Source of the DNA: SAR86 cluster bacterium | Lineage (GTDB): Bacteria; Pseudomonadota; Gammaproteobacteria; Magnimaribacterales; AG-339-G14 | Direction of reading: 5' to 3' | NCBI GenBank assembly: GCA_028140145.1 | Contig: JAOIOC010000003.1 | Location: 24,842-88,841, forward strand | DNA: 64,000 bases | Notes under the pieces: generated by a model | What the model was told of the DNA's origin: nothing | The model's database searches: none | What the model saw: the letters and a program-made list of their open reading frames with translations, nothing else | Made by a program: the position numbers and the translations under genes | Shown: positions 3,015 to 21,840 of the stretch, in pieces | Numbering within the stretch: position 1 is the first letter of the stretch | Layout: every line of letters starts with the position of its first letter

Positions 3015-4691
3015 TTGGTTTTGCGGTTTCTTATTGTTATTTTTTCTATTTTTCTTATTGGGTGTAATTTTTCAAGCGGAAAGGACACTGAAATCTTGAG
3101 CATTCCTCAAGGGGATTTAGTTGGTTTTACAAAAGGCGAAACCGATTATTTTTTGGGCATACCTTATGCTGAGCCTCCTACAGGAGATAATAGATTTGAA
3201 CCACCAAAATCTCATAAGGGTTGGAGCGATGTTTTAGAGGCAAAGGAAGCGGAAAAGCAGTGTATGCAACCTCAAGGTGAAGAAGGCGAATTAAGTGAGT
3301 TCTTTGAGGTTTTTCTTACGAAATCTGGAATGAAGCGGTGGGAACAAATCATTCTAGAAAATGCTGCCTGGCTTTTCGCAAGTTTAGATTTTGAGAAACA
3401 GCAATCCGAAGATTGCTTATTCATTAACATCATTAAACCCTCAAAAATAGATAACGGTTCCTTACCTGTTATGGTTTGGTTCCACGGAGGTGGTTATAAC
3501 TTCGGTAACGGTGATGGACTATACATAACAGATAGATTTGCAAAACGTGACGTTATCTTGGTAACAATGAACTACCGATTAGGTCCATTTGGATTTTTTG
3601 CACATCCGTTATTATCTGAAACATCAAAAATGGGTGTCTCAGGAAATTATGGAACTTTAGATCAAATCCAAGCCTTAAAATGGGTGCAGACCAATATACA
3701 TCTATTTGGGGGCGATCCAGATAACGTAACTATTTTCGGTGAATCCGCCGGAGGAGCAAGCGTTGAAACCTTAGTGTCAACAAAACTTGCAAAAGATCTT
3801 TTTCATAAAGCCATAGCTCAAAGCGGTTACACAGTAGGAAGAGCTAGAAATATCAGAGAGCAAAAAGGTGATCTAATTTCTGCAGAATCGCTCGGGGAAA
3901 AGTTTTTTTATTCAATATCTGGAATAGATAATCCTTCTGTAGAAGATATTAAAAATCTACCAGCGGATCTTTTTTTTGAAACTGAAAAATTTGAAAAGGA
4001 AAACGATAGTGAACAAGCTGGATGGTTTCCTATCGAGGACAAATGGGTTTTTGATTCGCCGACGCAAATAAGTTTTACCGAAGGCAAAACCAATGATGTT
4101 ATTTACGTTGCTGGATTTAATGCAAATGAGGGTACCAATTTATCTCCTTTCGTATTTGGTGAAAAACTTAATGAGAATGATTGGATCAAACAAACTTGGG
4201 AGATGAGTGACTTCTCTTACCTTCCTTTACCTGATGATGTAAAAGCATATGGCGAAAGTCTTGAATATTCGAAGGAACGATCTGCCAATGAATTGTGGGG
4301 CGATTTAGCATTTGGAGGAGATGGTTTTTTCATGGTTAATCAGTTTGCATCCAATGGCGGAGAAGCTTATTTGTATTATTTTGAAAAAGGCCCGTCATCG
4401 GATACCCAAACTCTTGATGCCGCGCATGGCTTAGAGTTGTTTTATCTGTTCGATAACATAGTCCCATTTTGGCCTTGGAAAAAAATTGATGATGAAATTA
4501 GAGATGCGATGCTTAAGGATTGGACGGATATTGCAAAATATGGAAAACCAAGAAGTGAATGGCAAAAATTTGATCCGAATAATCCAAAGGCAATGCATTA
4601 TGGGCAGAGAATTGAATTCAAGACTCCCGAAAAACTCTCTCTTTATAAGAGTCTAGAAAAGGTTTATTTAGAAGAAGGAAAAAATTTCTAG
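3015..4691 (+). CDS. Type-B carboxylesterase/lipase, probable lipoprotein
   Basis: GIPYAEPP, SEDCL, FHGGG oxyanion loop, FGESAGG catalytic Ser, AAHGLEL His; lipobox-like LIGC; TTG start. Confidence 0.92.
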   Translation: MVLRFLIVIFSIFLIGCNFSSGKDTEILSIPQGDLVGFTKGETDYFLGIPYAEPPTGDNRFEPPKSHKGWSDVLEAKEAEKQCMQPQGEEGELSEFFEVFLTKSGMKRWEQIILENAAWLFASLDFEKQQSEDCLFINIIKPSKIDNGSLPVMVWFHGGGYNFGNGDGLYITDRFAKRDVILVTMNYRLGPFGFFAHPLLSETSKMGVSGNYGTLDQIQALKWVQTNIHLFGGDPDNVTIFGESAGGASVETLVSTKLAKDLFHKAIAQSGYTVGRARNIREQKGDLISAESLGEKFFYSISGIDNPSVEDIKNLPADLFFETEKFEKENDSEQAGWFPIEDKWVFDSPTQISFTEGKTNDVIYVAGFNANEGTNLSPFVFGEKLNENDWIKQTWEMSDFSYLPLPDDVKAYGESLEYSKERSANELWGDLAFGGDGFFMVNQFASNGGEAYLYYFEKGPSSDTQTLDAAHGLELFYLFDNIVPFWPWKKIDDEIRDAMLKDWTDIAKYGKPRSEWQKFDPNNPKAMHYGQRIEFKTPEKLSLYKSLEKVYLEEGKNF

Positions 4692-5629
4692 AGCAGGTGC
4701 TTTTTCATGAAAGAAAGTGCTTGATCCATAGCGTCTCTTCTTATCGACCAATCTCCGCCCGAATGAGCGCCAAACTTTATCTCGCCGGTTTCAAATATTT
4801 TAACTCTATCTTCAAATGAGTTAGCACTCATTGCTTTTCCATCATCGGTAATAAAAGTGATACTTCCATCGTTTTTTAACTGTGCAAACTTTTCATTTAT
4901 TGCCAGCGCTTCAGGCCAAAAAGTCACAGGATGAATAGAGTCAAAAGAGTGATGACCTTTTTTAAATTCACACACCTCAACATCCGCACCAGCTTTCTTC
5001 ATTTCTTTGCAAATATCTTTAACAAGAATGCCAGGCGTATAGTCATCATCTGAACCAATTAAATTTAAAATTGGAGCTTTTGACCATCGGTGTTCATCCG
5101 GATTCAAAAACGTTGGAGGATAAAAAGGTAGGTGAGCACAAAATCTCTCACCGTTTGGTGCAAGCTTCTCCATAATAGGTTCCCACGCAGCATAGAAAGC
5201 TACCATGCCGCCTAAGCTCCAACCGGTAATTGCGATTTTATTTGCGTCTAGATCAGGATGCCTTGATAAAAATTTCAAAGGTTCTACCACATCAACCATC
5301 ATCATGGCTGTTGTCACAGAGAGTTGATCTTCGACAGTAGAAGCAACCCCTCTTGAATCAAAACTGTGAGCTTTAAAGACTGCAATTCCATTATTGAGAA
5401 AATTGAGTATATGTTCATGATGGTGCCCTGCCCAATTATCGCTTCCATGCGCGCATACTACTACTGGATAGGGTTTTTTCCCCTGTTCTGGAAAAATTAA
5501 CCAACCAAAACTATCTTGAGTTTCGGCTTCATCTAATTCATTAAATATTTGATAGAACTCATAAGGATTTTTGGATTTATATTCGATGTATCCGAATTCG
5601 TTTTCTTTAAAGTTGATTTTTTCGTTCAC
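4688..5629 (-). CDS. Dienelactone hydrolase-like alpha/beta hydrolase
   Basis: GWSLGG nucleophile, GSDDDYTP Asp, HHSFD His. Confidence 0.85.
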   Translation of the reverse strand: MNEKINFKENEFGYIEYKSKNPYEFYQIFNELDEAETQDSFGWLIFPEQGKKPYPVVVCAHGSDNWAGHHHEHILNFLNNGIAVFKAHSFDSRGVASTVEDQLSVTTAMMMVDVVEPLKFLSRHPDLDANKIAITGWSLGGMVAFYAAWEPIMEKLAPNGERFCAHLPFYPPTFLNPDEHRWSKAPILNLIGSDDDYTPGILVKDICKEMKKAGADVEVCEFKKGHHSFDSIHPVTFWPEALAINEKFAQLKNDGSITFITDDGKAMSANSFEDRVKIFETGEIKFGAHSGGDWSIRRDAMDQALSFMKKHLL

Positions 5630-5640
5630 GTCTTATAATT

Positions 5641-5659
5641 ATTGAGAATAATTCTTATT
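5641..5659. promoter_or_regulatory. Fur-box-like palindrome in the divergent promoter
   Basis: ATTGAGAATAATTCTTATT, close to TGAGAAT-N-ATTCTCA; AT-rich background lowers its significance. Confidence 0.35.
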
Positions 5660-8836: not shown

Positions 8837-9826
8837 ATGAAAGCTTTTGTTTGTAATGAATTTGGACCAGTTGATATTCATAAGGTTGAAGATGTTACAG
8901 AGCCAGAATTGTTAGATGGCCAAGTATTAATTGATGTCAAAGCTGCTGGGGTCAGCTTTCCTGAAGTACTCATAGTCCAAGGCCTATATCAGTTCAAACC
9001 TCCCTTTCCTTTCATTCCGGGAGGAGAAGTCGCTGGTGTGATAAGTAAGATAGGGAACGGTGTTGAAGGTTATAAAGAAGGCGACAGGGTTATTGCTATG
9101 TGCGGAAATGGAGCGATGGCGGAGAAAGTTGCTGCATCTGCAGCCTCGCTTACTAAACTGCCAGAATCAATGAGCTTCCCCGAAGGAGCTGCATTTCCTA
9201 TGAACTACGGCACAACAATTCACGGCCTTAAACAAAGAGCCAATCTTCAAGAAGGTGAAACCTTAATGGTTTCTGGAGCTGCCGGAGGCCTAGGAATAAC
9301 TGCTATCCACGTAGGAAAAGCGATGGGTGCAAAAGTAATAGCAACTGCATCATCAGAAGAAAAATTAGAAATCTGTAAGCAAGAGGGAGCTGATGAGGTA
9401 GTTTTGTATCCCAGAGATATGGACAAAGACAAGCAAAAAGAATTTTCAAATAATCTGAAAGCCGTTGCTCCCAATGGAATTGATGTAATTTATGATATTG
9501 TTGGTGGTGATTATGCTGAGCCTTCTTTGAGAGCAATTGCAAGAAACGGCAGATATCTGGTAATAGGATTTACTGCAGGCATACCAAAAATGCCTCTGAA
9601 CTTAACACTACTAAAAGAATGCCAAATCGTCGGAGTATTTTGGGGACAGTTCCAAGGCTTGGAGCCTGAGGTAAATAAACAAAATTTTGATGATTGTTTT
9701 AAGATGGTGACTGATGGAAAATTTAAACCTTTAGTGTCACACACTTATAAGATTGAAGATTCAGTAGAAGCTTTAAAATTCATTCAAGATAGAAAAGCGA
9801 CCGGAAAAGTTATTGTAGAGTTTTAA
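8837..9826 (+). CDS. NADPH:quinone oxidoreductase family (MDR, zeta-crystallin-like)
   Basis: QGLYQFKPPFPFIPGGEVAG, GAAGGLG; start moved to ATG 8837 behind a GGAG SD. Confidence 0.9.
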   Translation: MKAFVCNEFGPVDIHKVEDVTEPELLDGQVLIDVKAAGVSFPEVLIVQGLYQFKPPFPFIPGGEVAGVISKIGNGVEGYKEGDRVIAMCGNGAMAEKVAASAASLTKLPESMSFPEGAAFPMNYGTTIHGLKQRANLQEGETLMVSGAAGGLGITAIHVGKAMGAKVIATASSEEKLEICKQEGADEVVLYPRDMDKDKQKEFSNNLKAVAPNGIDVIYDIVGGDYAEPSLRAIARNGRYLVIGFTAGIPKMPLNLTLLKECQIVGVFWGQFQGLEPEVNKQNFDDCFKMVTDGKFKPLVSHTYKIEDSVEALKFIQDRKATGKVIVEF

Positions 9827-9834
9827 ATGTTTTT

Positions 9835-9867
9835 AAAAAAAAAGAGGAGCTATAGCTCCTCTTTTTT
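9835..9867. terminator. Bidirectional rho-independent terminator
   Basis: AAAAAAGAGGAGC-TATA-GCTCCTCTTTTTT between convergent genes. Confidence 0.9.
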
Positions 9868-9878
9868 CTAGATAAAGT

Positions 9879-10283
9879 TTAGCTTCTTTTAATCCAAATC
9901 CCACCAAGAATAATTGCAAGAATAACAAGATACCAAACCATGAATACCGGATCTGCAGGTATCAAACTAAATGAAGAATCCCCCACACCAATCGAGTCAA
10001 CAAATTGCTGGCCACTAGCTGTGAGATTATCAAGCTCTGCTAGTGCATTGACAGTGCCTTGCCAGTTTGCATATAAGAAACCTACTGTTTGAAGATTGTA
10101 ATAAACAACACCCAAACCAAATAAGGTTGCTAAAACTTTGTTTAACATTGGCGTGCCAGGATCACTTTGAACATTTACCACCATTCTGAAGGCGACCCAT
10201 ATAAGAAAAGCACCTGCTGCAAGATATACAGAGTTACTTATTAAAAAAACATTAAATTGATTAATTATTTCCATTTCAGTCAT
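9879..10283 (-). CDS. Uncharacterised 3-TM membrane protein, tandem paralog 1 (WVAFR family)
   Basis: Start reassigned to ATG 10283 (AGGAGAG SD; aligns with the paralog N-termini); 134 aa. Confidence 0.85.
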   Translation of the reverse strand: MTEMEIINQFNVFLISNSVYLAAGAFLIWVAFRMVVNVQSDPGTPMLNKVLATLFGLGVVYYNLQTVGFLYANWQGTVNALAELDNLTASGQQFVDSIGVGDSSFSLIPADPVFMVWYLVILAIILGGIWIKRS

Positions 10284-10333
10284 ATTTCTCTCCTTAATAA
10301 TTAAACTGAGCTGACATAGTATCACCTACTATT

Positions 10334-10366
10334 AAAAAAGGGAGTAAGAAATTACCCCCTTTTTTT
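10334..10366 (-). terminator. Rho-independent terminator after paralog 2
   Basis: Minus strand AAAAAAAGGGGGTAA-TTTC-TTACTCCCTTTTTT. Confidence 0.82.
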
Positions 10367-10382
10367 ATTTTTATCTAGAGAC

Positions 10383-10787
10383 TTAATCGCTAGGTTTAAG
10401 CCAAGTACTTCCAAGAAGAATTACAAGAACTGCAATCCACCAAACGAATAGTATTGGATTGTTTGGAATTAAACTAAAAGTCACTTCTTCAGCACCGACA
10501 AATTCAACAAATCTCTGCGCACGGTCAGATAGCTCTGGTAACTGACTGAGATCGAAAGCGGTACTCTCAAAGTTCACTCTTACAAATGCCAAAGTTTGCA
10601 AGTTCAAAAAAACTATTCCCAATGAAAAAATAGTTGATAAGACCTTTTGGAAAACAGTTGCTCCTTGATCTTGAATTCTTAGCACTCCTCTAAATGCAAC
10701 CCATAGTAAAAATATATTTGCTGCGCCAAATATTGCCGTGCTTGTCATAGCCCCATTAAAAAGGGCATAAATTTCATATTCAGTCAT
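10383..10787 (-). CDS. Uncharacterised 3-TM membrane protein, tandem paralog 2
   Basis: AGGAGAG SD; WVAFR, QKVLSTIFSLG, AQRFV, WW motifs shared with neighbours. Confidence 0.87.
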   Translation of the reverse strand: MTEYEIYALFNGAMTSTAIFGAANIFLLWVAFRGVLRIQDQGATVFQKVLSTIFSLGIVFLNLQTLAFVRVNFESTAFDLSQLPELSDRAQRFVEFVGAEEVTFSLIPNNPILFVWWIAVLVILLGSTWLKPSD

Positions 10788-10847
10788 ATTTTCTCTCCTA
10801 TAAAAATTTAACTGTGATCATGATAAATAAATAAAAAATTTATTGCT

Positions 10848-10880
10848 ATAAAAAGAGAGACTTAATATCTCTCTTTTTAT
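10848..10880 (-). terminator. Rho-independent terminator after paralog 3
   Basis: ATAAAAAGAGAGA-CTTAATA-TCTCTCTTTTTAT inverted repeat with T tract. Confidence 0.8.
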
Positions 10881-10892
10881 AAAAAAATTAAA

Positions 10893-11288
10893 CTATTGTT
10901 TAGTCCAAATTCTTCCCATCAACATAACAGTCACAACTGCCCACCAACCTGTATTGATTGGATTATTGAATAACCCGCCTTGAGCAACTTCTCCTGTACC
11001 CCAAGTGTCAACAAAAGCTTGTGCTGTTGGCGATATAGCCTCGAGTTGACTCATAGAATAAGCTGAATTTTCAAGGGTTGCGAATAGAATCGCGCCGGTA
11101 TTAAGACCATTGAAGATTATGCCTAAACTAAAAAGAGTCACTAAAACTTTGTTAAGAGCATTAGCATCTTCAGCTCTCACTTGATTTGCAGCCCTAAATG
11201 CTACCCAAAGCAAAAAGAATACACCAGCTTGATAAATTGCATTAGATGTTAAAAAACCAGTTAAGGTATCGTAAATTTGATATTCCAT
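10893..11288 (-). CDS. Uncharacterised 3-TM membrane protein, tandem paralog 3
   Basis: AGGAGG SD; WVAFR, NKVLVTLFSLG, AQAFV, WW motifs. Confidence 0.87.
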   Translation of the reverse strand: MEYQIYDTLTGFLTSNAIYQAGVFFLLWVAFRAANQVRAEDANALNKVLVTLFSLGIIFNGLNTGAILFATLENSAYSMSQLEAISPTAQAFVDTWGTGEVAQGGLFNNPINTGWWAVVTVMLMGRIWTKQ

Positions 11289-11409
11289 AATTTCCTCCTA
11301 TTAGAAAATCTAATAGTTAATTTTAACAAATCTAATGTATTTATTTAGGAGTTTATTAAAAATATCAAATAAATATAAACTTTCTCTTACAAATGAGTAT
11401 AGTGAATAT

Positions 11410-11724
11410 ATGTTTGAAATTTATTTAGATAAAGCAAAAAAATACCGTTTCCGCCTGAGGGCAAAGAATGGAGAGAATATCTGTGCAAGTCAGGCCTACA
11501 CATCAAGGTCTTCCTGTATGAAAGGGATAAAATCCGTTGCAAAGAACTCAAAATCTAAAGATAACTTTATTACTCAGGAGTCTAAATCTGGAAAATGGAC
11601 TTTCAGGTTAAAGTCTGGAAACAATAAAGTTGTCGCAACCAGTCAGTCCTATAAAGATAAATCATCCATGAATAAAGGGATTAGAAGTGTGATGACTAAT
11701 GCTCCAAAGCTTGTAATAAAGTAG
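11410..11724 (+). CDS. YegP-family protein (two DUF1508 repeats)
   Basis: Two repeats FRL(R/K)xxNxxxxAxSQxY...KGIxSV; start moved to ATG 11410 (MFEIY). Confidence 0.88.
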   Translation: MFEIYLDKAKKYRFRLRAKNGENICASQAYTSRSSCMKGIKSVAKNSKSKDNFITQESKSGKWTFRLKSGNNKVVATSQSYKDKSSMNKGIRSVMTNAPKLVIK

Positions 11725-11889
11725 TTTTTTTCCTTTTTAGCTCTGTCAGTGTTCTAGATGAATCTATTAAAATGATTCTGGTTTGCTATGAAGTTGGCAA
11801 TTCTATAGTCTCAAGCCATGTAAAAGGCTTAAATATAATCACATTATCTGTTCTCAATAAATAATTTCTTTTTCTGATAACATTTAAGG

Positions 11890-12264
11890 ATGAAATTAAA
11901 TAACTATCTAATCTTCTTAGTAACGGTTTTTTTTCTTTCTGCCTGCGGCGTAAAAAGCGTTACCTCTGCTTCTGTTCAAGCTGATATTGTGTCTGTTGCT
12001 GAATACAAGGATTATTCATGTAAAGAGCTGGCTATAGATGCGCTTAATATTCAAAACAGAATTCCTGAAATTTCTTCTGTTATCGATAAAAAGAAAAAAG
12101 ATAACGATGCATACATAGCTACAGCAGTTGTGTTTATGCCAATATTGGCTGCAGGGATTAAAGGCAATCAAGAAGAAGCGGCTCAGTTAGCTCTCTATAA
12201 GGGGCAACTAAACGCAATTAGACAGGCAGCAATAATGAAGGATTGCGAAATAATTGTTCAATAA
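11890..12264 (+). CDS. Uncharacterised lipoprotein
   Basis: Lipobox LSAC; YSCxEL, internal hydrophobic stretch, KGQLNAI, C-terminal Cys. Confidence 0.75.
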   Translation: MKLNNYLIFLVTVFFLSACGVKSVTSASVQADIVSVAEYKDYSCKELAIDALNIQNRIPEISSVIDKKKKDNDAYIATAVVFMPILAAGIKGNQEEAAQLALYKGQLNAIRQAAIMKDCEIIVQ

Positions 12265-12299
12265 TTTAGATCATATACCCTAAAGGGGGCTACCTAATT

Positions 12300-13619
12300 T
12301 TATTGCCAACTGACCTTTGCAAAAGTACCAGTAGTACAATAAAAAATGTCTCTATTGAAACCAGGTGATAAAAACATACCATTGGCTAGTCTTGCGTTTA
12401 CATCAACTTTGCTGAGTAATTCTCCAGTTTGAATATCTACAACAATTAAATAATCTTTGTCGTTTTCAAAACTATTAATGACCAGTTCTTTTGTATCTGG
12501 GAAAACAACCGGTTGCATGGTTGGTCTTGCGTCTAAATTCCAAGATAAATCTAGATTTCCATTTTTTGTTGAAATTCCTGCAAGACCTCCATTAAGACTA
12601 TCCCATGCGATGCAAGTTTCTAATTCTGGAACATTCACCGGCGGTGCAATAATACCTCCGCCATTTCTTTCAAAAGGTTCAATGAAGGATAGATCTGATG
12701 TTGTGAGATCAAGCTTTAAAAGTCTTTGCTTGCCAGTCCATGGTGCAGGGCTTCTCCAACTCAAATGAGTATTTTCCTTGACTCTACCGTTGGGATGAAC
12801 ACCGTAAATTTGTCTTACTGAATCTATATCTCCGTTATCCATTAACCAAAGGCACCCATCAGAAATGCACCCATCCCATGCCAAACCTTGAATGCCCTTT
12901 TCTTGTCTGTATTGAGGTTGCCACTCTTGATCAATCTCTAAATTTCTTTCATGAACTCTTAGTCGCCATATTCTTGAAATTCCCGGAATGTAAATGAATT
13001 CACCCAGTGGAGTTATATCGCTGGCAATCCTTCCCATAGAGCCTTCAGGAAGCTGAATAGTCTCGATAACCTCAAGATTATTAGGGTTTAACCTAGTTAT
13101 TGAAGAATTACATTGATTTTCAAGTCTGCAGTCTTTAGTGACTATGCTTCCATCAGATAAAACTAATAATCCATTGTGAGCCTGATCAATAGGAAGCTTT
13201 TTTTCAATTAAAACTTGGCAATCACTATTTAAGACATGCATGAAATTTCCATTAACCTTGATAATGTTACCGTTTTTGTGGGCAGCTATGGCTCCGCACC
13301 ACACATGATCCCCACAAGGTAGATTAGGACTTTCACTGATAGTCTCAAGAGTTAGAGGATCTATTCTTTGCAACCATCCGAAAGGTTTTGGTCCGTTGAA
13401 GTATGGCATCGTTCCCCCAAGATAGAACTCATTCTCATCTCTTCTTACAACCATTACATTCCATTTCCCTGATAGAACCGATTCAACTTTTGCCTCAGCA
13501 CCCTTTGCAAATAGGCCTCCTTTGGCTGCTTTCTGTCTTCTGTTCCCGCCACACTCAACAGGCCATGGAGATTTAAAATAACCAGGATGTTGGTTTTCTC
13601 TATCTAATGAGTTACTCAA
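12300..13619 (-). CDS. Hypothetical protein, probable beta-propeller
   Basis: 439-aa ORF; repeated 'xDPxTLExIxx' / 'VDIQTGELLSKV'-type blade-ending motifs. Confidence 0.65.
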   Translation of the reverse strand: MSNSLDRENQHPGYFKSPWPVECGGNRRQKAAKGGLFAKGAEAKVESVLSGKWNVMVVRRDENEFYLGGTMPYFNGPKPFGWLQRIDPLTLETISESPNLPCGDHVWCGAIAAHKNGNIIKVNGNFMHVLNSDCQVLIEKKLPIDQAHNGLLVLSDGSIVTKDCRLENQCNSSITRLNPNNLEVIETIQLPEGSMGRIASDITPLGEFIYIPGISRIWRLRVHERNLEIDQEWQPQYRQEKGIQGLAWDGCISDGCLWLMDNGDIDSVRQIYGVHPNGRVKENTHLSWRSPAPWTGKQRLLKLDLTTSDLSFIEPFERNGGGIIAPPVNVPELETCIAWDSLNGGLAGISTKNGNLDLSWNLDARPTMQPVVFPDTKELVINSFENDKDYLIVVDIQTGELLSKVDVNARLANGMFLSPGFNRDIFYCTTGTFAKVSWQ

Positions 13620-20703: not shown

Positions 20704-21840
20704 TTAAAGTTTGTTATTTTTATAATCCAAAATTTCTTTTGGAATTACGATTTCTCCGTCACCGCTAGCATCGTTACCCCACGCCTTCCTCGTATAGGTT
20801 ATAACGGCTGCAATGTCGACTTCAGAAAGCTGTTCGGCGTATGACTGCATAGCAGCACCTTGAACACCTTCCATTAAAATTTCTATTTGTTTAGCTTTAT
20901 CATTTAGCACAAGATCGCTTCCTGCTAATGCTGGAAATACAGGAGGTAATCCTTCTCCATTGACTTGATGACAAGCTACACAATTGGTTTGGTAAACACC
21001 TTCTCCAATTTCATAAAGTTCTTCTGTTGACCAAAGCTTTTCAGTGAGAAGTGCTTGTTGAATTTTTGCTTCTTTCTTCTCATTTACCCAAAGTTCGTAA
21101 TCTTCAGGTGATACTGCTTTAACAACAACTGGCATGTAACCGTGATATTGCCCACACAGCTCAGTGCATTGACCTCTGAAAATTCCTTCTTCATCAACTT
21201 GTGTCCAAGCTGTGTTTATAAACCCAGGGATTGCATCTTGCTTTACTGCAAAATCTGGAACCCACCATGAGTGGATTACATCGTTAGCTGTGATTAAAAA
21301 TCTGATTCTTTTATTTGTTGGTATGACTAAAGGCTCGTCAACTTCCAAAAGATAGTTATCTGATTTGGGGGCAATGTTGTTTCTTTGATCTAAATCTGTG
21401 GATAGGTTACTGAAAAAACTTACTTCGTCTTCTAGGTACTCATACTGCCACTTCCATTGATGCCCAGTGATTAAAATATTGATATCTCCTTCTGCATCAT
21501 CGTATGCACGAATCATTGTAAAGGTTGCTGGAATGGCCATGACCGCCAAAATAACTGCAAATAATACGGTCCAAGTCATTTCTAGAACTGGATGGTCATC
21601 AAACTGAGCTGGTTTATCTCCCTCTTTTTTTCTAAAAGCAACTATGAGATAAACCATAAAGCCGAGCACTAATGCTCCAATGACCACGCATATCCAGAAA
21701 ATAGTCATGTGCAGATCAAAAATTTCTCTGCTGAGGGCATTAACACCCGGAGTCATATTCACGTCTCCCCAGCCAGCAAAAAGCGGAAGAGATACGCAAC
21801 AGGAAATTAATGCCGCAAAAATTCTTTTAATAAGTACCAT
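20704..21840 (-). CDS. coxB: Cytochrome c oxidase subunit II with fused C-terminal cytochrome c (caa3-type)
   Basis: DVIHSWW, CuA motif CTELCGQYHGYM, heme c motif CVACH. Confidence 0.96.
   Translation of the reverse strand: MVLIKRIFAALISCCVSLPLFAGWGDVNMTPGVNALSREIFDLHMTIFWICVVIGALVLGFMVYLIVAFRKKEGDKPAQFDDHPVLEMTWTVLFAVILAVMAIPATFTMIRAYDDAEGDINILITGHQWKWQYEYLEDEVSFFSNLSTDLDQRNNIAPKSDNYLLEVDEPLVIPTNKRIRFLITANDVIHSWWVPDFAVKQDAIPGFINTAWTQVDEEGIFRGQCTELCGQYHGYMPVVVKAVSPEDYELWVNEKKEAKIQQALLTEKLWSTEELYEIGEGVYQTNCVACHQVNGEGLPPVFPALAGSDLVLNDKAKQIEILMEGVQGAAMQSYAEQLSEVDIAAVITYTRKAWGNDASGDGEIVIPKEILDYKNNKL

What the first reader, a model, noticed from the sequence alone, without database searches (positions are those of the whole stretch)
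9879..11288. Tandem trio of diverged, unrecognised 3-TM membrane proteins (WVAFR family)
Seen: three co-oriented 131-134 aa ORFs share ExxI, (L/I)WVAFR, (N/Q)KVLxT(L/I)FxLG, L(Q/N)T, (A/G)QxFV(D/E), a Pro before TM3, W(W/Y) and a C-terminal GxxWxK. They are otherwise strongly diverged, so the duplications are old and retained. Charge distribution suggests N-out, a short basic cytoplasmic TM1-TM2 loop, an acidic ~45-aa periplasmic helical loop and a cytoplasmic C-terminal Lys. I recognise no family: there is no PQ-loop, no retinal-binding Lys context and no MotA/ExbB motif. Inference: keeping three paralogs in a genome that has lost rsmB, atpI and others from their usual positions implies strong selection. 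They could be subunits of a homo- or hetero-oligomeric channel/transporter (3-helix half-transporters analogous to SemiSWEET or MPC), alternative-specificity sensors, or diversifying surface/phage-receptor proteins. This is the best candidate here for an undescribed system.
Basis: partly seen in the sequence, partly recalled or inferred. Interest (0 to 1): 0.78.

Follow-up and report, generated by a model that had tools for sequence, protein, structure and literature searches.

The report
Undescribed small membrane protein trio
Three neighbouring genes encode related small inner-membrane proteins of a family that no database describes; the family is found almost only in one order of tiny-genome marine bacteria, and in sister genera the same genes sit behind an iron-starvation (Fur-type) switch.

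Summary
They are real genes. Median dN/dS within paralog clades is 0.03-0.25. Each copy has its own ribosome-binding site and terminator hairpin. Marine metatranscriptome contigs cover them. The AF2 model is confident (pLDDT 96): three transmembrane helices, N-out/C-in by charge, with an acidic periplasmic helical cap.

No Pfam, NCBIfam, PDB, PHROG, PADLOC, Atlas or fold match identifies the family. It occurs in 78 of 104 genomes of the order. Outside the order it is almost missing from the class: 1 marginal hit in 396. Two high-GC genomes hold single copies.

Copy sets differ between species of one genus, a birth-and-death pattern. The periplasmic loop is not hypervariable, and only one polar transmembrane position is conserved.

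New lead: in 12 of 12 sister-genus arrays and 2 of 3 loci of another family, the first gene follows a 7-1-7 palindrome, TGAGAATnATTCTCA. The same box precedes siderophore-type TonB receptors, and each genome has one Fur gene. The window's own trio lacks the box.

Best reading: an undescribed iron-limitation-linked inner-membrane family. The mechanism is unproven, and the channel and surface-receptor ideas are unsupported.

The parts
10893..11288 (-). Copy A (131 aa), first gene of the array; paralog clade A, shared with genera g3 and g4
   Evidence: ORF; alignment; clade of 10 rows with 100* support; GGAGG at 11294-11298 read
10383..10787 (-). Copy B (134 aa); paralog clade B (g1 plus one g3 copy). 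This is the protein that was modelled
   Evidence: AF2 model with pLDDT 96.2 and helices 3-41, 45-81, 88-97 and 111-129
9879..10283 (-). Copy C (134 aa from ATG; the ORF is open up to the GTG at 10325); paralog clade C, seen only in genus g1
   Evidence: The hmm alignment starts at the MTEMEI start in all orthologs. Metatranscriptome contig X1 record 3 spans 9869-10293
10846..10882 (-). Terminator-like hairpin with U-run after copy A
   Evidence: -17.8 kcal/mol, z -6.2, 0 of 200 shuffles fold as well
10335..10364 (-). Terminator-like hairpin with U-run after copy B
   Evidence: -14.8 kcal/mol, z -3.4, 0 of 200 shuffles fold as well
9836..9869 (-). Terminator-like hairpin after copy C, in the convergent gap shared with the Zn-ADH/Qor gene
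   Evidence: -19.6 kcal/mol, z -4.9, 0 of 200 shuffles fold as well. The consensus scan missed all three hairpins (A/U-rich stems)
5643..5657 (.). The only Fur-type box (TGAGAATAATTCTTA) in the window. It lies between a DLH-family hydrolase gene and pckA, not at the trio. It is listed because the explanation rests on this operator
   Evidence: 1 mismatch; PWM score 20.3, the best site in genome G000

Best explanation
The three genes are separately transcribed paralogs of an undescribed family of small inner-membrane proteins, almost confined to one order of small-genome marine Gammaproteobacteria.

Each protein is predicted to be a three-helix bundle with its N-terminus in the periplasm and its C-terminus in the cytoplasm. 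The N-terminal helix extension, the extension of helix 2 and a short third helix form a small, strongly acidic periplasmic cap. A conserved belt (W29, R33, N44, K48, T/S52, W129) sits at the cytoplasmic membrane face. There are no His or Cys residues, so no heme or Cu/Fe-S ligands.

In the sister genera of the same family, and in a second family of the order, the array is one operon. Its promoter (extended -10, TGnTATAGT) is overlapped by a perfect or near-perfect 7-1-7 palindrome, TGAGAATnATTCTCA. The same palindrome stands, often in tandem, in front of siderophore-type TonB-dependent receptor genes. I read it as this order's Fur box. This is inferred and unproven.

From that I infer that the family is switched on by iron starvation and works in iron-limited physiology at the periplasmic face of the inner membrane. 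The most likely role is a small accessory protein that binds or hands on a cation (iron), or that docks a periplasmic or membrane partner of iron uptake through its acidic cap and its helices.

In the window's genus the box has been lost from the array. A variable three-gene islet has been inserted between SCO1 and the array, and every copy has acquired its own promoter region and terminator. The trio here is therefore probably expressed independently of Fur.

What each step rests on:
- Computed here: gene reality, family limits, predicted fold and topology, operator distribution.
- Inferred: Fur identity of the operator, iron induction.
- Speculative: the molecular role.
For: Real genes:
- Median dN/dS within six paralog clades is 0.03-0.25.
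- Each copy has a ribosome-binding site and a terminator hairpin.
- 19 RNA runs from 13 studies hold at least 20% of the stretch's words.
- Contigs of 4 metatranscriptomes from 4 studies lie on the genes at 94% or better: all three genes in X1, X6 and X7, and copies A and B in X5.

Fold and topology: pLDDT 96.2, pTM 0.84; charge bias.

Family limits:
- 78 of 104 genomes of the order have it, including 25 of 25 in family f1.
- 1 marginal hit in 396 class genomes outside the order.

Operator at the arrays:
- At most 2 mismatches, 36-49 nt before the ATG of the first array gene, in 12 of 12 f1 loci outside genus g1 and in 2 of 3 f2/g10 loci.
- In the alignment of these 14 upstream regions, only the -10, the palindrome and the ribosome-binding site are conserved.
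- It is the only zero-mismatch site in genomes G017, G018, G020 and G024.
- Sites per genome: 2-7, against 0-1 for the reversed control pattern.

Operator at iron genes:
- The same box, single or in tandem, lies about 30-120 nt upstream of a receptor whose best NCBIfam model is 'TonB-dependent siderophore receptor' (E 2e-40 on fragments). This holds in G016, G037, G002, G003 and G005.
- It also lies beside SBP_bac_6-type binding proteins.

Fur identity:
- There is one Fur-family gene per genome in 5 of 5 genomes.
- The E. coli Fur box GATAATGATAATCATTATC is read as overlapping 7-1-7 repeats (PMC11353095, passages read).
- Hybrid sites such as TGATAATGATTCTCA occur at the receptor genes.

Weak, phylogenetically confounded co-occurrence: 49 of 55 order genomes with this receptor have the family, against 29 of 49 without it (my count).
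Against: - The window's own trio has no such box. The best PWM score within 150 nt upstream is under 8 for all 13 g1 arrays, so for these three genes the iron link is by homology only.
- No box of score 13 or more lies next to the family in the 11 f3, f4 and f2/g8 loci, nor in the high-GC homolog.
- The PWM was built from the very sites it scores highly, so only the negative results and the genome-wide counts are independent.
- The 12 f1 loci share ancestry. At most two independent origins of the box-gene link are seen (f1 and f2/g10).
- That the palindrome is bound by Fur, and that expression responds to iron, is untested. The binding proteins beside the box score below every NCBIfam cut-off.
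- The family occurs in genomes without the siderophore-type receptor (29 genomes), and 6 genomes have the receptor without the family.
- No metal-binding motif is established: only E3 (91%), E5 (54%) and E95 (54%) are recurrent acidic positions.
Confidence: 0.4

Rival explanations
1. Subunits of a homo- or hetero-oligomeric channel or half-transporter: several 3-TM protomers assemble around a pore or substrate path, and the paralogs give alternative specificities.
For: - Size and three transmembrane helices.
- Tandem paralogs.
- A conserved R33/K48/T52 cluster near the cytoplasmic ends of TM1 and TM2.
- The trio-specific polar run NLQT in TM2.
Against: - Family-wide, the only polar transmembrane position conserved in at least 90% of 56 diverse members is T/S52. 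Position 17, at the periplasmic end of TM1, is polar in 79%.
- No profile match to PQ-loop/MtN3, MPC, LysE (above cut-off), SMR or any transporter family.
- No transporter partner gene is conserved next to it in 8 or more different genomic contexts.
- The paralog sets differ between species of one genus, and single-copy or zero-copy genomes are common. This argues against an obligate hetero-oligomer.
Confidence: 0.15
2. Accessory subunit or assembly factor of the aa3-type cytochrome c oxidase (or another respiratory complex), encoded at the tail of the cox cluster.
For: - In 25 of 25 f1 loci the array lies on the same strand after coxB-coxA-ctaG-coxC-(195 aa)-SURF1-ctaA-cyoE-SCO1.
- In genera g2-g4 it lies directly behind SCO1, 89-140 nt away.
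- Small 3-TM accessory subunits of oxidases exist (recalled: CyoD/COX4_pro type).
Against: - The link exists only in f1: 0 of 13 loci from f2, f3 and f4 are next to cox genes. It may be inherited position only.
- The array has its own promoter and operator.
- The spot is a gene-gain hotspot in genus g1.
- The family is multi-copy and absent from 26 of 104 genomes that are all aerobes with this oxidase type (oxidase presence itself was not counted).
- No His or Cys.
- No COX4-type profile hit.
Confidence: 0.12
3. A diversifying protective family: membrane-embedded immunity against membrane-attacking toxins or phage entry, evolving by gene birth and death.
For: - Birth-and-death pattern. There are at least six paralog clades, and different subsets sit in species of one genus: the window has A, B, C; G011 has P1, A, C, D; G014 has D, C, P2, P1.
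- The array lies next to a variable islet.
- Clade-specific residues lie mostly in the helices, as expected for in-membrane recognition.
Against: - Strong purifying selection within clades.
- No hypervariable segment.
- Fixed chromosomal position and vertical inheritance across a family.
- No toxin gene beside it.
- No PADLOC or PHROG hit.
- No homolog in 50,697 phage records or in IMG/VR pattern scans.
Confidence: 0.08
4. An abundant lineage-specific membrane protein with a structural or otherwise unrelated role. On this reading the palindrome in front of it belongs to a regulator other than Fur, or the link to iron is incidental.
For: - The box also stands before pckA and a DLH-family hydrolase, which are not iron genes.
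- The box is missing at the family's genes in f3, f4 and g1.
- No iron-binding motif is shown.
Against: - One Fur gene per genome.
- Half-site identity with the canonical Fur box, and hybrid sites.
- Tandem boxes at siderophore-type receptors in five genomes of three genera and two families.
Confidence: 0.25

Closest known systems
Fur-repressed iron-uptake genes of Gammaproteobacteria (TonB-dependent siderophore receptors, FbpA/SfuA-type binding proteins)
   Same: In sister genera the array has the same operator (7-1-7 palindrome) in the same place, just after the -10 element, as the siderophore-type receptor genes of the same genomes. The canonical box and its 7-1-7 reading come from PMC11353095 (passages read).
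   Different: The proteins resemble no known uptake component. The box has G/C at positions 4 and 12 where the E. coli box has T/A. The window's trio lacks the box. Iron dependence is not measured.
   Same: About 130 aa or less, three transmembrane helices, paralogs side by side.
   Different: No profile match. There is a ~40-residue acidic periplasmic cap made of helix extensions. Only one conserved polar transmembrane residue is present. No fold match stands above generic helical hairpins.
Small 3-TM accessory subunits of respiratory oxidases (CyoD/COX4_pro type; recalled, not fetched)
   Same: Size, helix count and position at the end of the oxidase gene cluster in family f1.
   Different: No profile hit. 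The family is multi-copy with species-specific sets, is missing from a quarter of the order's genomes, is unlinked to cox genes outside f1, and has its own iron-type operator.
Class I holins (3 TM, N-out/C-in; recalled)
   Same: Predicted topology and helix count.
   Different: No charged C-terminal tail (about 5 residues). There is a long periplasmic loop, no lysis or prophage context, no PHROG hit and no phage homolog. The genes are inherited vertically across an order.

Membership tests
LysE translocator (PF01810) | Score above Pfam's gathering cut-off over the ~190-position domain | tested here: not met
   copy A only, 20.6 bits against a cut-off of 25.6; residues 18-70 match profile positions 62-117 of 193. 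Copies B and C have no hit at E up to 10; 1 of 56 family members.
SemiSWEET / PQ-loop / MtN3 | Profile match to the PQ-loop or MtN3 repeat | tested here: not met
   No such hit at E up to 10 for the three proteins, or at E up to 0.1 for 56 members.
SemiSWEET / PQ-loop / MtN3 | Shared three-helix-bundle fold | tested here: inconclusive
   Foldseek against PDB gave 0 matches at E 1e-3 or better. The VIA-align wide search listed only generic hairpins and designed bundles, best Z 8.8. An unlisted family is not excluded.
MotA/ExbB/TolQ proton-channel family | Profile match; large cytoplasmic loop between TM1 and TM2 | tested here: not met
   No hit. The TM1-TM2 loop is about 12 residues, and the long loop is periplasmic, between TM2 and TM3.
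Heme-bearing 3-TM membrane anchors (SdhC/SdhD type) | Conserved heme-ligand His; adjacent flavoprotein and Fe-S subunit genes | tested here: not met
   His is 0.2% of family residues, with none in the trio and none conserved. The neighbours are pckA, gshA, a Zn-ADH, DUF1508 and cox assembly genes.
Prokaryotic oxidase subunit IV (COX4_pro) or oxidase accessory subunit | Profile match; linkage to oxidase genes throughout the family's range | tested here: not met
   No hit. Linked in 25 of 25 f1 loci but in 0 of 13 loci of f2, f3 and f4.
Fur (iron-starvation) regulon | Fur-type 7-1-7 box overlapping the promoter of the gene: the window's trio | tested here: not met
   The best PWM score within 150 nt upstream of each of the three genes is under 8. 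The only hit in the window with 2 or fewer mismatches is at 5643-5657.
Fur (iron-starvation) regulon | Fur-type 7-1-7 box overlapping the promoter: homologous arrays in sister genera | tested here: met
   12 of 12 f1 loci outside g1 and 2 of 3 f2/g10 loci have the box, 36-49 nt before the ATG and just after TATAGT.
Fur (iron-starvation) regulon | Fur binding and iron-dependent expression | not testable with these tools
   Needs EMSA or footprinting, reporters, or iron-manipulated transcriptomes.
Class I holins | Charged cytoplasmic C-terminal tail; lysis-cassette or prophage context; phage homologs | tested here: not met
   The tail is about 5 residues. No PHROG hit. No match in phage records or IMG/VR. 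The genes hold a chromosomal, vertically inherited position.
Anti-phage defence or immunity families (PADLOC) | Match to a known or candidate defence protein model | tested here: not met
   0 families for 7 family members and 3 islet neighbours at E up to 0.01.

The most novel reading that the evidence does not exclude
The family is a previously unrecognised inner-membrane component of the iron-starvation response of an abundant order of small-genome marine Gammaproteobacteria. It would be a three-helix protein whose acidic periplasmic cap takes part in iron capture or hand-over. In most of family f1 it is the tightest Fur target in the genome. In the window's genus it has escaped Fur control and is kept as three to four independently transcribed, species-specific paralogs. 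That pattern would fit a lineage living under chronic iron scarcity.
Probability: 0.3. Interest if true: 0.75.

Novelty: categorically new. Interest (0 to 1): 0.55.

Why it matters
Small-genome marine heterotrophs keep few paralogs. Three to four copies of a 134-residue membrane protein, each with its own expression signals, in a genome of roughly 1.1-1.3 Mb is a real investment.

If the iron link holds, it would give a new, testable player in how an abundant bacterioplankton group copes with iron scarcity. It would also give a natural experiment, since sister genera have the Fur box and this genus does not.

It defines a new protein family, with a confident model and clear boundaries, that could be curated at once.

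If the iron link fails, it remains a well-delimited lineage-specific family of unknown function, which is a common kind of finding.

I chose 'categorically new' only in the sense that no sequence, profile or fold search ties the family to any described one. Whether its mechanism is new is unknown.

Tried and rejected
- Pfam and NCBIfam on the trio and on 56 diverse members: only scattered sub-threshold hits. No family is matched by more than 2 members.
- PDB sequence profile: best E 0.0059, to a designed repeat protein.
- Foldseek against PDB and BFVD: no match at E 1e-3 or better.
- VIA-align wide search: best Z 8.8, generic helical hairpins, designed bundles and SPX domains. Uninformative for a helical protein.
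- ESM Atlas: only 'hypothetical protein' clusters, and no usable named cluster.
- PHROGs and PADLOC: nothing.
- Phage records and IMG/VR: nothing.
- Longer, fused forms: none. The few 180-213-aa representatives look like frameshifted or chimeric calls when read.
- Homodimer prediction: score 0.04 against a mark of 0.42. The tool's verdict is 'no answer', so it is not evidence for or against self-association.
- Qor link. The Zn-ADH next to the family in f2/g10 is a paralog, 38-42% identical to the window's neighbour, not its ortholog. The ortholog is present in 103 of 104 genomes whether or not the family is there. I therefore dropped a membrane-anchor-for-Qor idea.
- Conserved functional neighbours outside f1: none. 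Contexts include DUF1295, M14 peptidase, TrmA/TrpR, ThiD, GltD-like and CDP-alcohol transferase genes.
- Consensus promoter and terminator scan: it found no terminator. The hairpins were found by reading and folding.
- Fur-type box at the high-GC homolog: none with 3 or fewer mismatches.
- Depth in the metatranscriptome contigs: in run X1, 74-90 over copies B and C against 10-45 over most neighbours.
- Run X5 has no cover over copy C. This is no evidence of absence.
- Earlier notes of this scan: nothing on this family.
- Literature: two full-text searches, built on my unverified guess that the order is SAR86, listed nothing on such a family (listings and abstract starts seen). A protein family cannot be searched by text, so 'not in print' rests mainly on the database searches above.
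Full report
**1. What is in the sequence**

One search lists three co-oriented minus-strand ORFs:
- 10893-11288 (131 aa; copy A).
- 10383-10787 (134 aa; copy B).
- 9879-10325 (148 aa from GTG; copy C). Copy C starts most plausibly at the ATG at 10283 (134 aa). That ATG has a GGAG ribosome-binding site, and all orthologs begin their profile match there.

The three proteins align over their whole length. B and C are 44% and 34% identical to A, and 31 of 135 columns are invariant. The gaps between the genes are 105 and 99 nt. Each gap holds a hairpin followed by a U-run (-17.8, -14.8 and -19.6 kcal/mol; z -6.2, -3.4 and -4.9; 0 of 200 shuffles fold as well). Each gene has its own GGAG-type ribosome-binding site. 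The trio is therefore three transcription units, not one operon. This is read from sequence, not measured.

**2. Are they real genes?**

- A profile of the three finds only these three places in the 1.10-Mb genome, which is 71.5% complete.
- I collected 89 copies from 41 loci of related genomes and built a tree. It has at least six well-supported paralog clades in the window's taxonomic family (A, B, C, D, P1, P2) and a dispersed clade elsewhere in the genome.
- Within clades, median pairwise dN/dS (NG86) is 0.154 (A, 33 usable of 45 pairs), 0.033 (B, 14 of 15), 0.131 (C, 66 of 78), 0.045 (D, 16 of 21), 0.245 (P1, 50 of 55) and 0.145 (P2, 49 of 66). Median dS is 1.1-1.8, so the ratios are approximate, but none is near 1.
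- The index of public runs shows 19 RNA runs from 13 studies, all marine or seawater, holding at least 20% of the words of 9700-11400.
- Contigs of four metatranscriptomes from four studies lie on the genes at 94% identity or better: all three genes in X1, X6 and X7, and A and B in X5. One X1 contig (9869-10293) covers copy C alone, from the terminator to 10 nt before the ATG.
- Contigs in an RNA library do not prove transcription, and depth cannot rank genes. I take this only as presence consistent with expression.

**3. The protein**

AlphaFold2 with a 56-sequence alignment gives a confident model of copy B: pLDDT 96.2, pTM 0.84, helices 3-41, 45-81, 88-97 and 111-129.

Charge counts over 82 distinct sequences:
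- N-terminal segment: K+R 0.2, D+E 1.8.
- TM2-TM3 loop: K+R 0.8, D+E 4.7.
- Other side: R33, K48, a short loop and a basic tail.

By the positive-inside rule the protein is N-out/C-in. The N-terminal helix extension, the extension of helix 2 and helix 3 form a small acidic periplasmic cap.

His and Cys make up 0.2% and 0.4% of family residues, with none in the trio. Heme, copper and iron-sulfur ligation are therefore excluded.

Conserved positions, in copy B numbering:
- W29, R33, N44, K48, T/S52 and W129, all at the cytoplasmic membrane face.
- F54, L56, A77, L80 and F93, which are packing positions.
- E3 (91%), and E5 and E95 (54% each), in the cap.

Variability is even along the chain. The periplasmic loop is not hypervariable. 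Positions that are fixed within clades but differ between them lie mostly in the helices: TM1 4 of 21, TM3 5 of 21, helix-2 extension 3 of 13, loop and helix 3 1 of 27.

**4. No known family**

Every identification search was negative:
- Pfam and NCBIfam on the three proteins gave only LysE for copy A, below the cut-off. On 56 diverse members, no family was matched by more than two.
- The PDB profile search gave nothing.
- Foldseek against PDB and against viral models gave no match at E 1e-3 or better.
- The exhaustive structural search gave only generic helical hairpins, best Z 8.8, which the tool itself rates as common for helical models.
- The ESM Atlas holds only 'hypothetical protein' clusters around it.
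- PHROGs, PADLOC, 50,697 phage records and IMG/VR gave nothing.
- No fused form was found.

**5. Distribution**

- The profile search of 1.84 billion representatives finds 165 at E 1e-3 or better, 48 at 1e-10 and 9 at 1e-30, nearly all 125-145 aa.
- In genomes at least 85% complete, the family is in 78 of 104 genomes of the order: f1 25 of 25, f3 37 of 48, f2 7 of 15, f4 8 of 15.
- Outside the order, 396 genomes drawn evenly from the class gave one marginal hit, E 1.9e-4 inside a 383-aa frame.
- The family is not strictly confined. A 58.6% GC contig carries a clear single-copy member of 142 aa. That genome and one of its 40 relatives have it.
- The order has genomes of 0.9-1.8 Mb at about 33-40% GC and a marine habitat. 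I suspect SAR86, but no call names it.

**6. Genomic setting and turnover**

In all 25 f1 loci examined (the window plus 24), the array follows the aa3-type oxidase cluster coxB(+cyt c)-coxA-ctaG-coxC-(195 aa)-SURF1-ctaA-cyoE-SCO1 on the same strand. In 24 of 25 it converges on a Zn-ADH/Qor gene followed by gshA and pckA. One locus ends before that point.

In genera g2-g4 the array sits directly behind SCO1, with gaps of 89-140 nt, and the gaps between copies are 8-76 nt. In the window's genus g1:
- A variable islet lies between SCO1 and the array. It holds DUF1508, a 124-aa protein and a 439-aa protein without Pfam hits, in different combinations.
- The copies are mostly about 100 nt apart, with some gaps of about 20 nt.

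Species of g1 hold different paralog sets. The window has A, B, C; G011 has P1, A, C, D; G014 has D, C, P2, P1. Arrays have 2-4 copies. This is a birth-and-death pattern on top of purifying selection.

Outside f1 the neighbours differ from lineage to lineage, and none recurs as a functional partner. The Qor-like gene beside the family in f2/g10 is a paralog of the window's neighbour, not its ortholog. The ortholog is present in 103 of 104 genomes whether or not the family is there.

**7. The new lead: an iron-type operator**

Printing the SCO1-to-array gaps of the 12 f1 loci outside g1 showed the same three elements in otherwise diverged sequence:
- An extended -10 element (TGnTATAGT).
- A 15-bp palindrome, TGAGAATnATTCTCA, starting 2-9 nt later.
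- The ribosome-binding site (alignment of 14 upstream regions).

At the arrays, the palindrome has at most 2 mismatches and lies 36-49 nt before the ATG of the first array gene. This holds in 12 of 12 of these loci and in 2 of 3 loci of f2/g10, where the genomic context is different. In one of those it serves a divergent pair.

Genome scans at 1 mismatch or fewer:
- They find 2-7 sites per genome, against 0-1 for the reversed control pattern.
- In G017, G018, G020 and G024 the array promoter is the only zero-mismatch site.

The other strong sites, often two in tandem about 27-34 nt apart, lie about 30-120 nt upstream of a TonB-dependent receptor. Its best NCBIfam model is 'TonB-dependent siderophore receptor' (E 2e-40 on a 489-aa fragment), followed by Fiu, FoxA and FhuA. 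This is seen in G016, G037, G002, G003 and G005. Sites also lie beside SBP_bac_6-type binding proteins, which score below all NCBIfam cut-offs.

Evidence that the palindrome is a Fur box:
- Each of five genomes has exactly one Fur-family gene.
- The E. coli Fur box GATAATGATAATCATTATC is read as overlapping 7-1-7 repeats (PMC11353095, passages read). The palindrome here differs from the embedded TGATAATnATTATCA only at the symmetric positions 4 and 12.
- Hybrid sites such as TGATAATGATTCTCA occur at the receptor genes.

I therefore read the palindrome as this order's Fur box and the arrays of g2-g4 and g10 as iron-repressed. This is an inference: neither binding nor iron response is measured.

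**8. What this means for the window's trio**

The trio itself has no such box. The best weight-matrix score within 150 nt upstream is under 8 for every copy in all 13 g1 arrays. The only site in the window is at 5643-5657, between a DLH-family hydrolase gene and pckA. No box of score 13 or more lies next to the family in the f3, f4 and f2/g8 loci, nor at the high-GC homolog.

The iron link thus applies to the family through its sister-genus arrays, and to these three genes only by homology. In g1 the promoter region with the box appears to have been replaced when the islet was inserted. The first array gene, whichever paralog it is, has a different conserved upstream sequence.

A weak and phylogenetically confounded co-occurrence exists. 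49 of 55 order genomes with the siderophore-type receptor have the family, against 29 of 49 without it (my count).

**9. Mechanism, ranked**

- Most likely (0.4 for the whole statement; about 0.75 that the sister arrays are Fur targets; about 0.2-0.25 for the molecular role). This is a small N-out/C-in inner-membrane protein of the iron-limitation response. It acts through its acidic periplasmic cap (cation binding or docking of a periplasmic partner) and through helix-helix contacts.
- Channel or half-transporter (0.15). This is weakened by the lack of conserved polar transmembrane residues and of any transporter signature.
- Oxidase accessory subunit (0.12). This rests on a position that is conserved only within one family and that behaves as a gene-gain hotspot.
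- Protective, diversifying family (0.08). The turnover fits, but the selection pattern, the fixed position and the absence from phages and defence catalogues do not.
- Unrelated or structural role, with an incidental or non-Fur operator (0.25).

**10. Verdict**

The family lies outside every described family that these tools can reach. Its mechanism is open. The Fur-type operator gives a concrete, cheap experimental entry.

Noticed in passing
window 5643-5657: A Fur-type palindrome, TGAGAATAATTCTTA, is the best-scoring site in the whole genome G000. It lies 14 nt from the start of a DLH-family hydrolase gene (4688-5629, minus) and 62 nt before pckA (5719, plus). Among 12 g1 loci it has the same score (20.3) in 9 and a weaker score (14.3) in 1; 2 loci do not reach that region. 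It is also present in g3 loci L020 and L022. Which of the two genes it controls, and why, is open.
   Followed up: partly
window 11335-13619: A variable islet lies between SCO1 and the array in genus g1 only. It holds a DUF1508/YegP-like gene (11335-11724, plus), a 124-aa protein with a hydrophobic N-terminus (11890-12264, plus) and a 439-aa protein with no Pfam or PADLOC hit (12300-13619, minus). Different g1 species hold different combinations.
   Followed up: partly
window 11298-11316 (minus strand): Just before the ribosome-binding site of copy A the sequence reads CTATTAGA-TTT-TCTAATAG, an 8-bp inverted repeat that could form a 5'-UTR hairpin. The upstream region of the first array gene is conserved in g1 whichever paralog comes first. 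It was not folded or tested.
   Followed up: no
L016 4794-5222 (G510) and G513:C130:5930-6346: Single-copy family members sit in two 2.5-3.0-Mb genomes of a different lineage; the one contig measured (L016, G510) has 58.6% GC. In G510 the neighbours are lptG, pepA, holC, DUF3303 and a Band-7 protein. The family is therefore not strictly confined to the low-GC order. Whether this is transfer or old inheritance is not resolved.
   Followed up: partly
L030, L033, L035 (f2/g10): In this genus the family gene is followed on the same strand by a GST and a Zn-ADH/Qor-like gene. That gene is a 38-42% identical paralog of the window's Qor neighbour, and its ortholog lies elsewhere. Two different Qor-type paralogs thus lie beside the family in two taxonomic families. 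This may be chance.
   Followed up: partly
window 20704-21840: The oxidase subunit II gene carries a C-terminal cytochrome c domain (COX2 plus Cytochrome_CBB3/Cytochrom_C hits). That makes it a caa3-type arrangement, which is ordinary, but it is relevant to the oxidase-accessory rival.
   Followed up: no
L074 (G037:C2, site at 166901-166915): A zero-mismatch Fur-type box lies between a divergent SBP_bac_6-type binding-protein gene and a cytochrome P450 gene whose best NCBIfam hit is SolI-like, below the cut-off.
   Followed up: no
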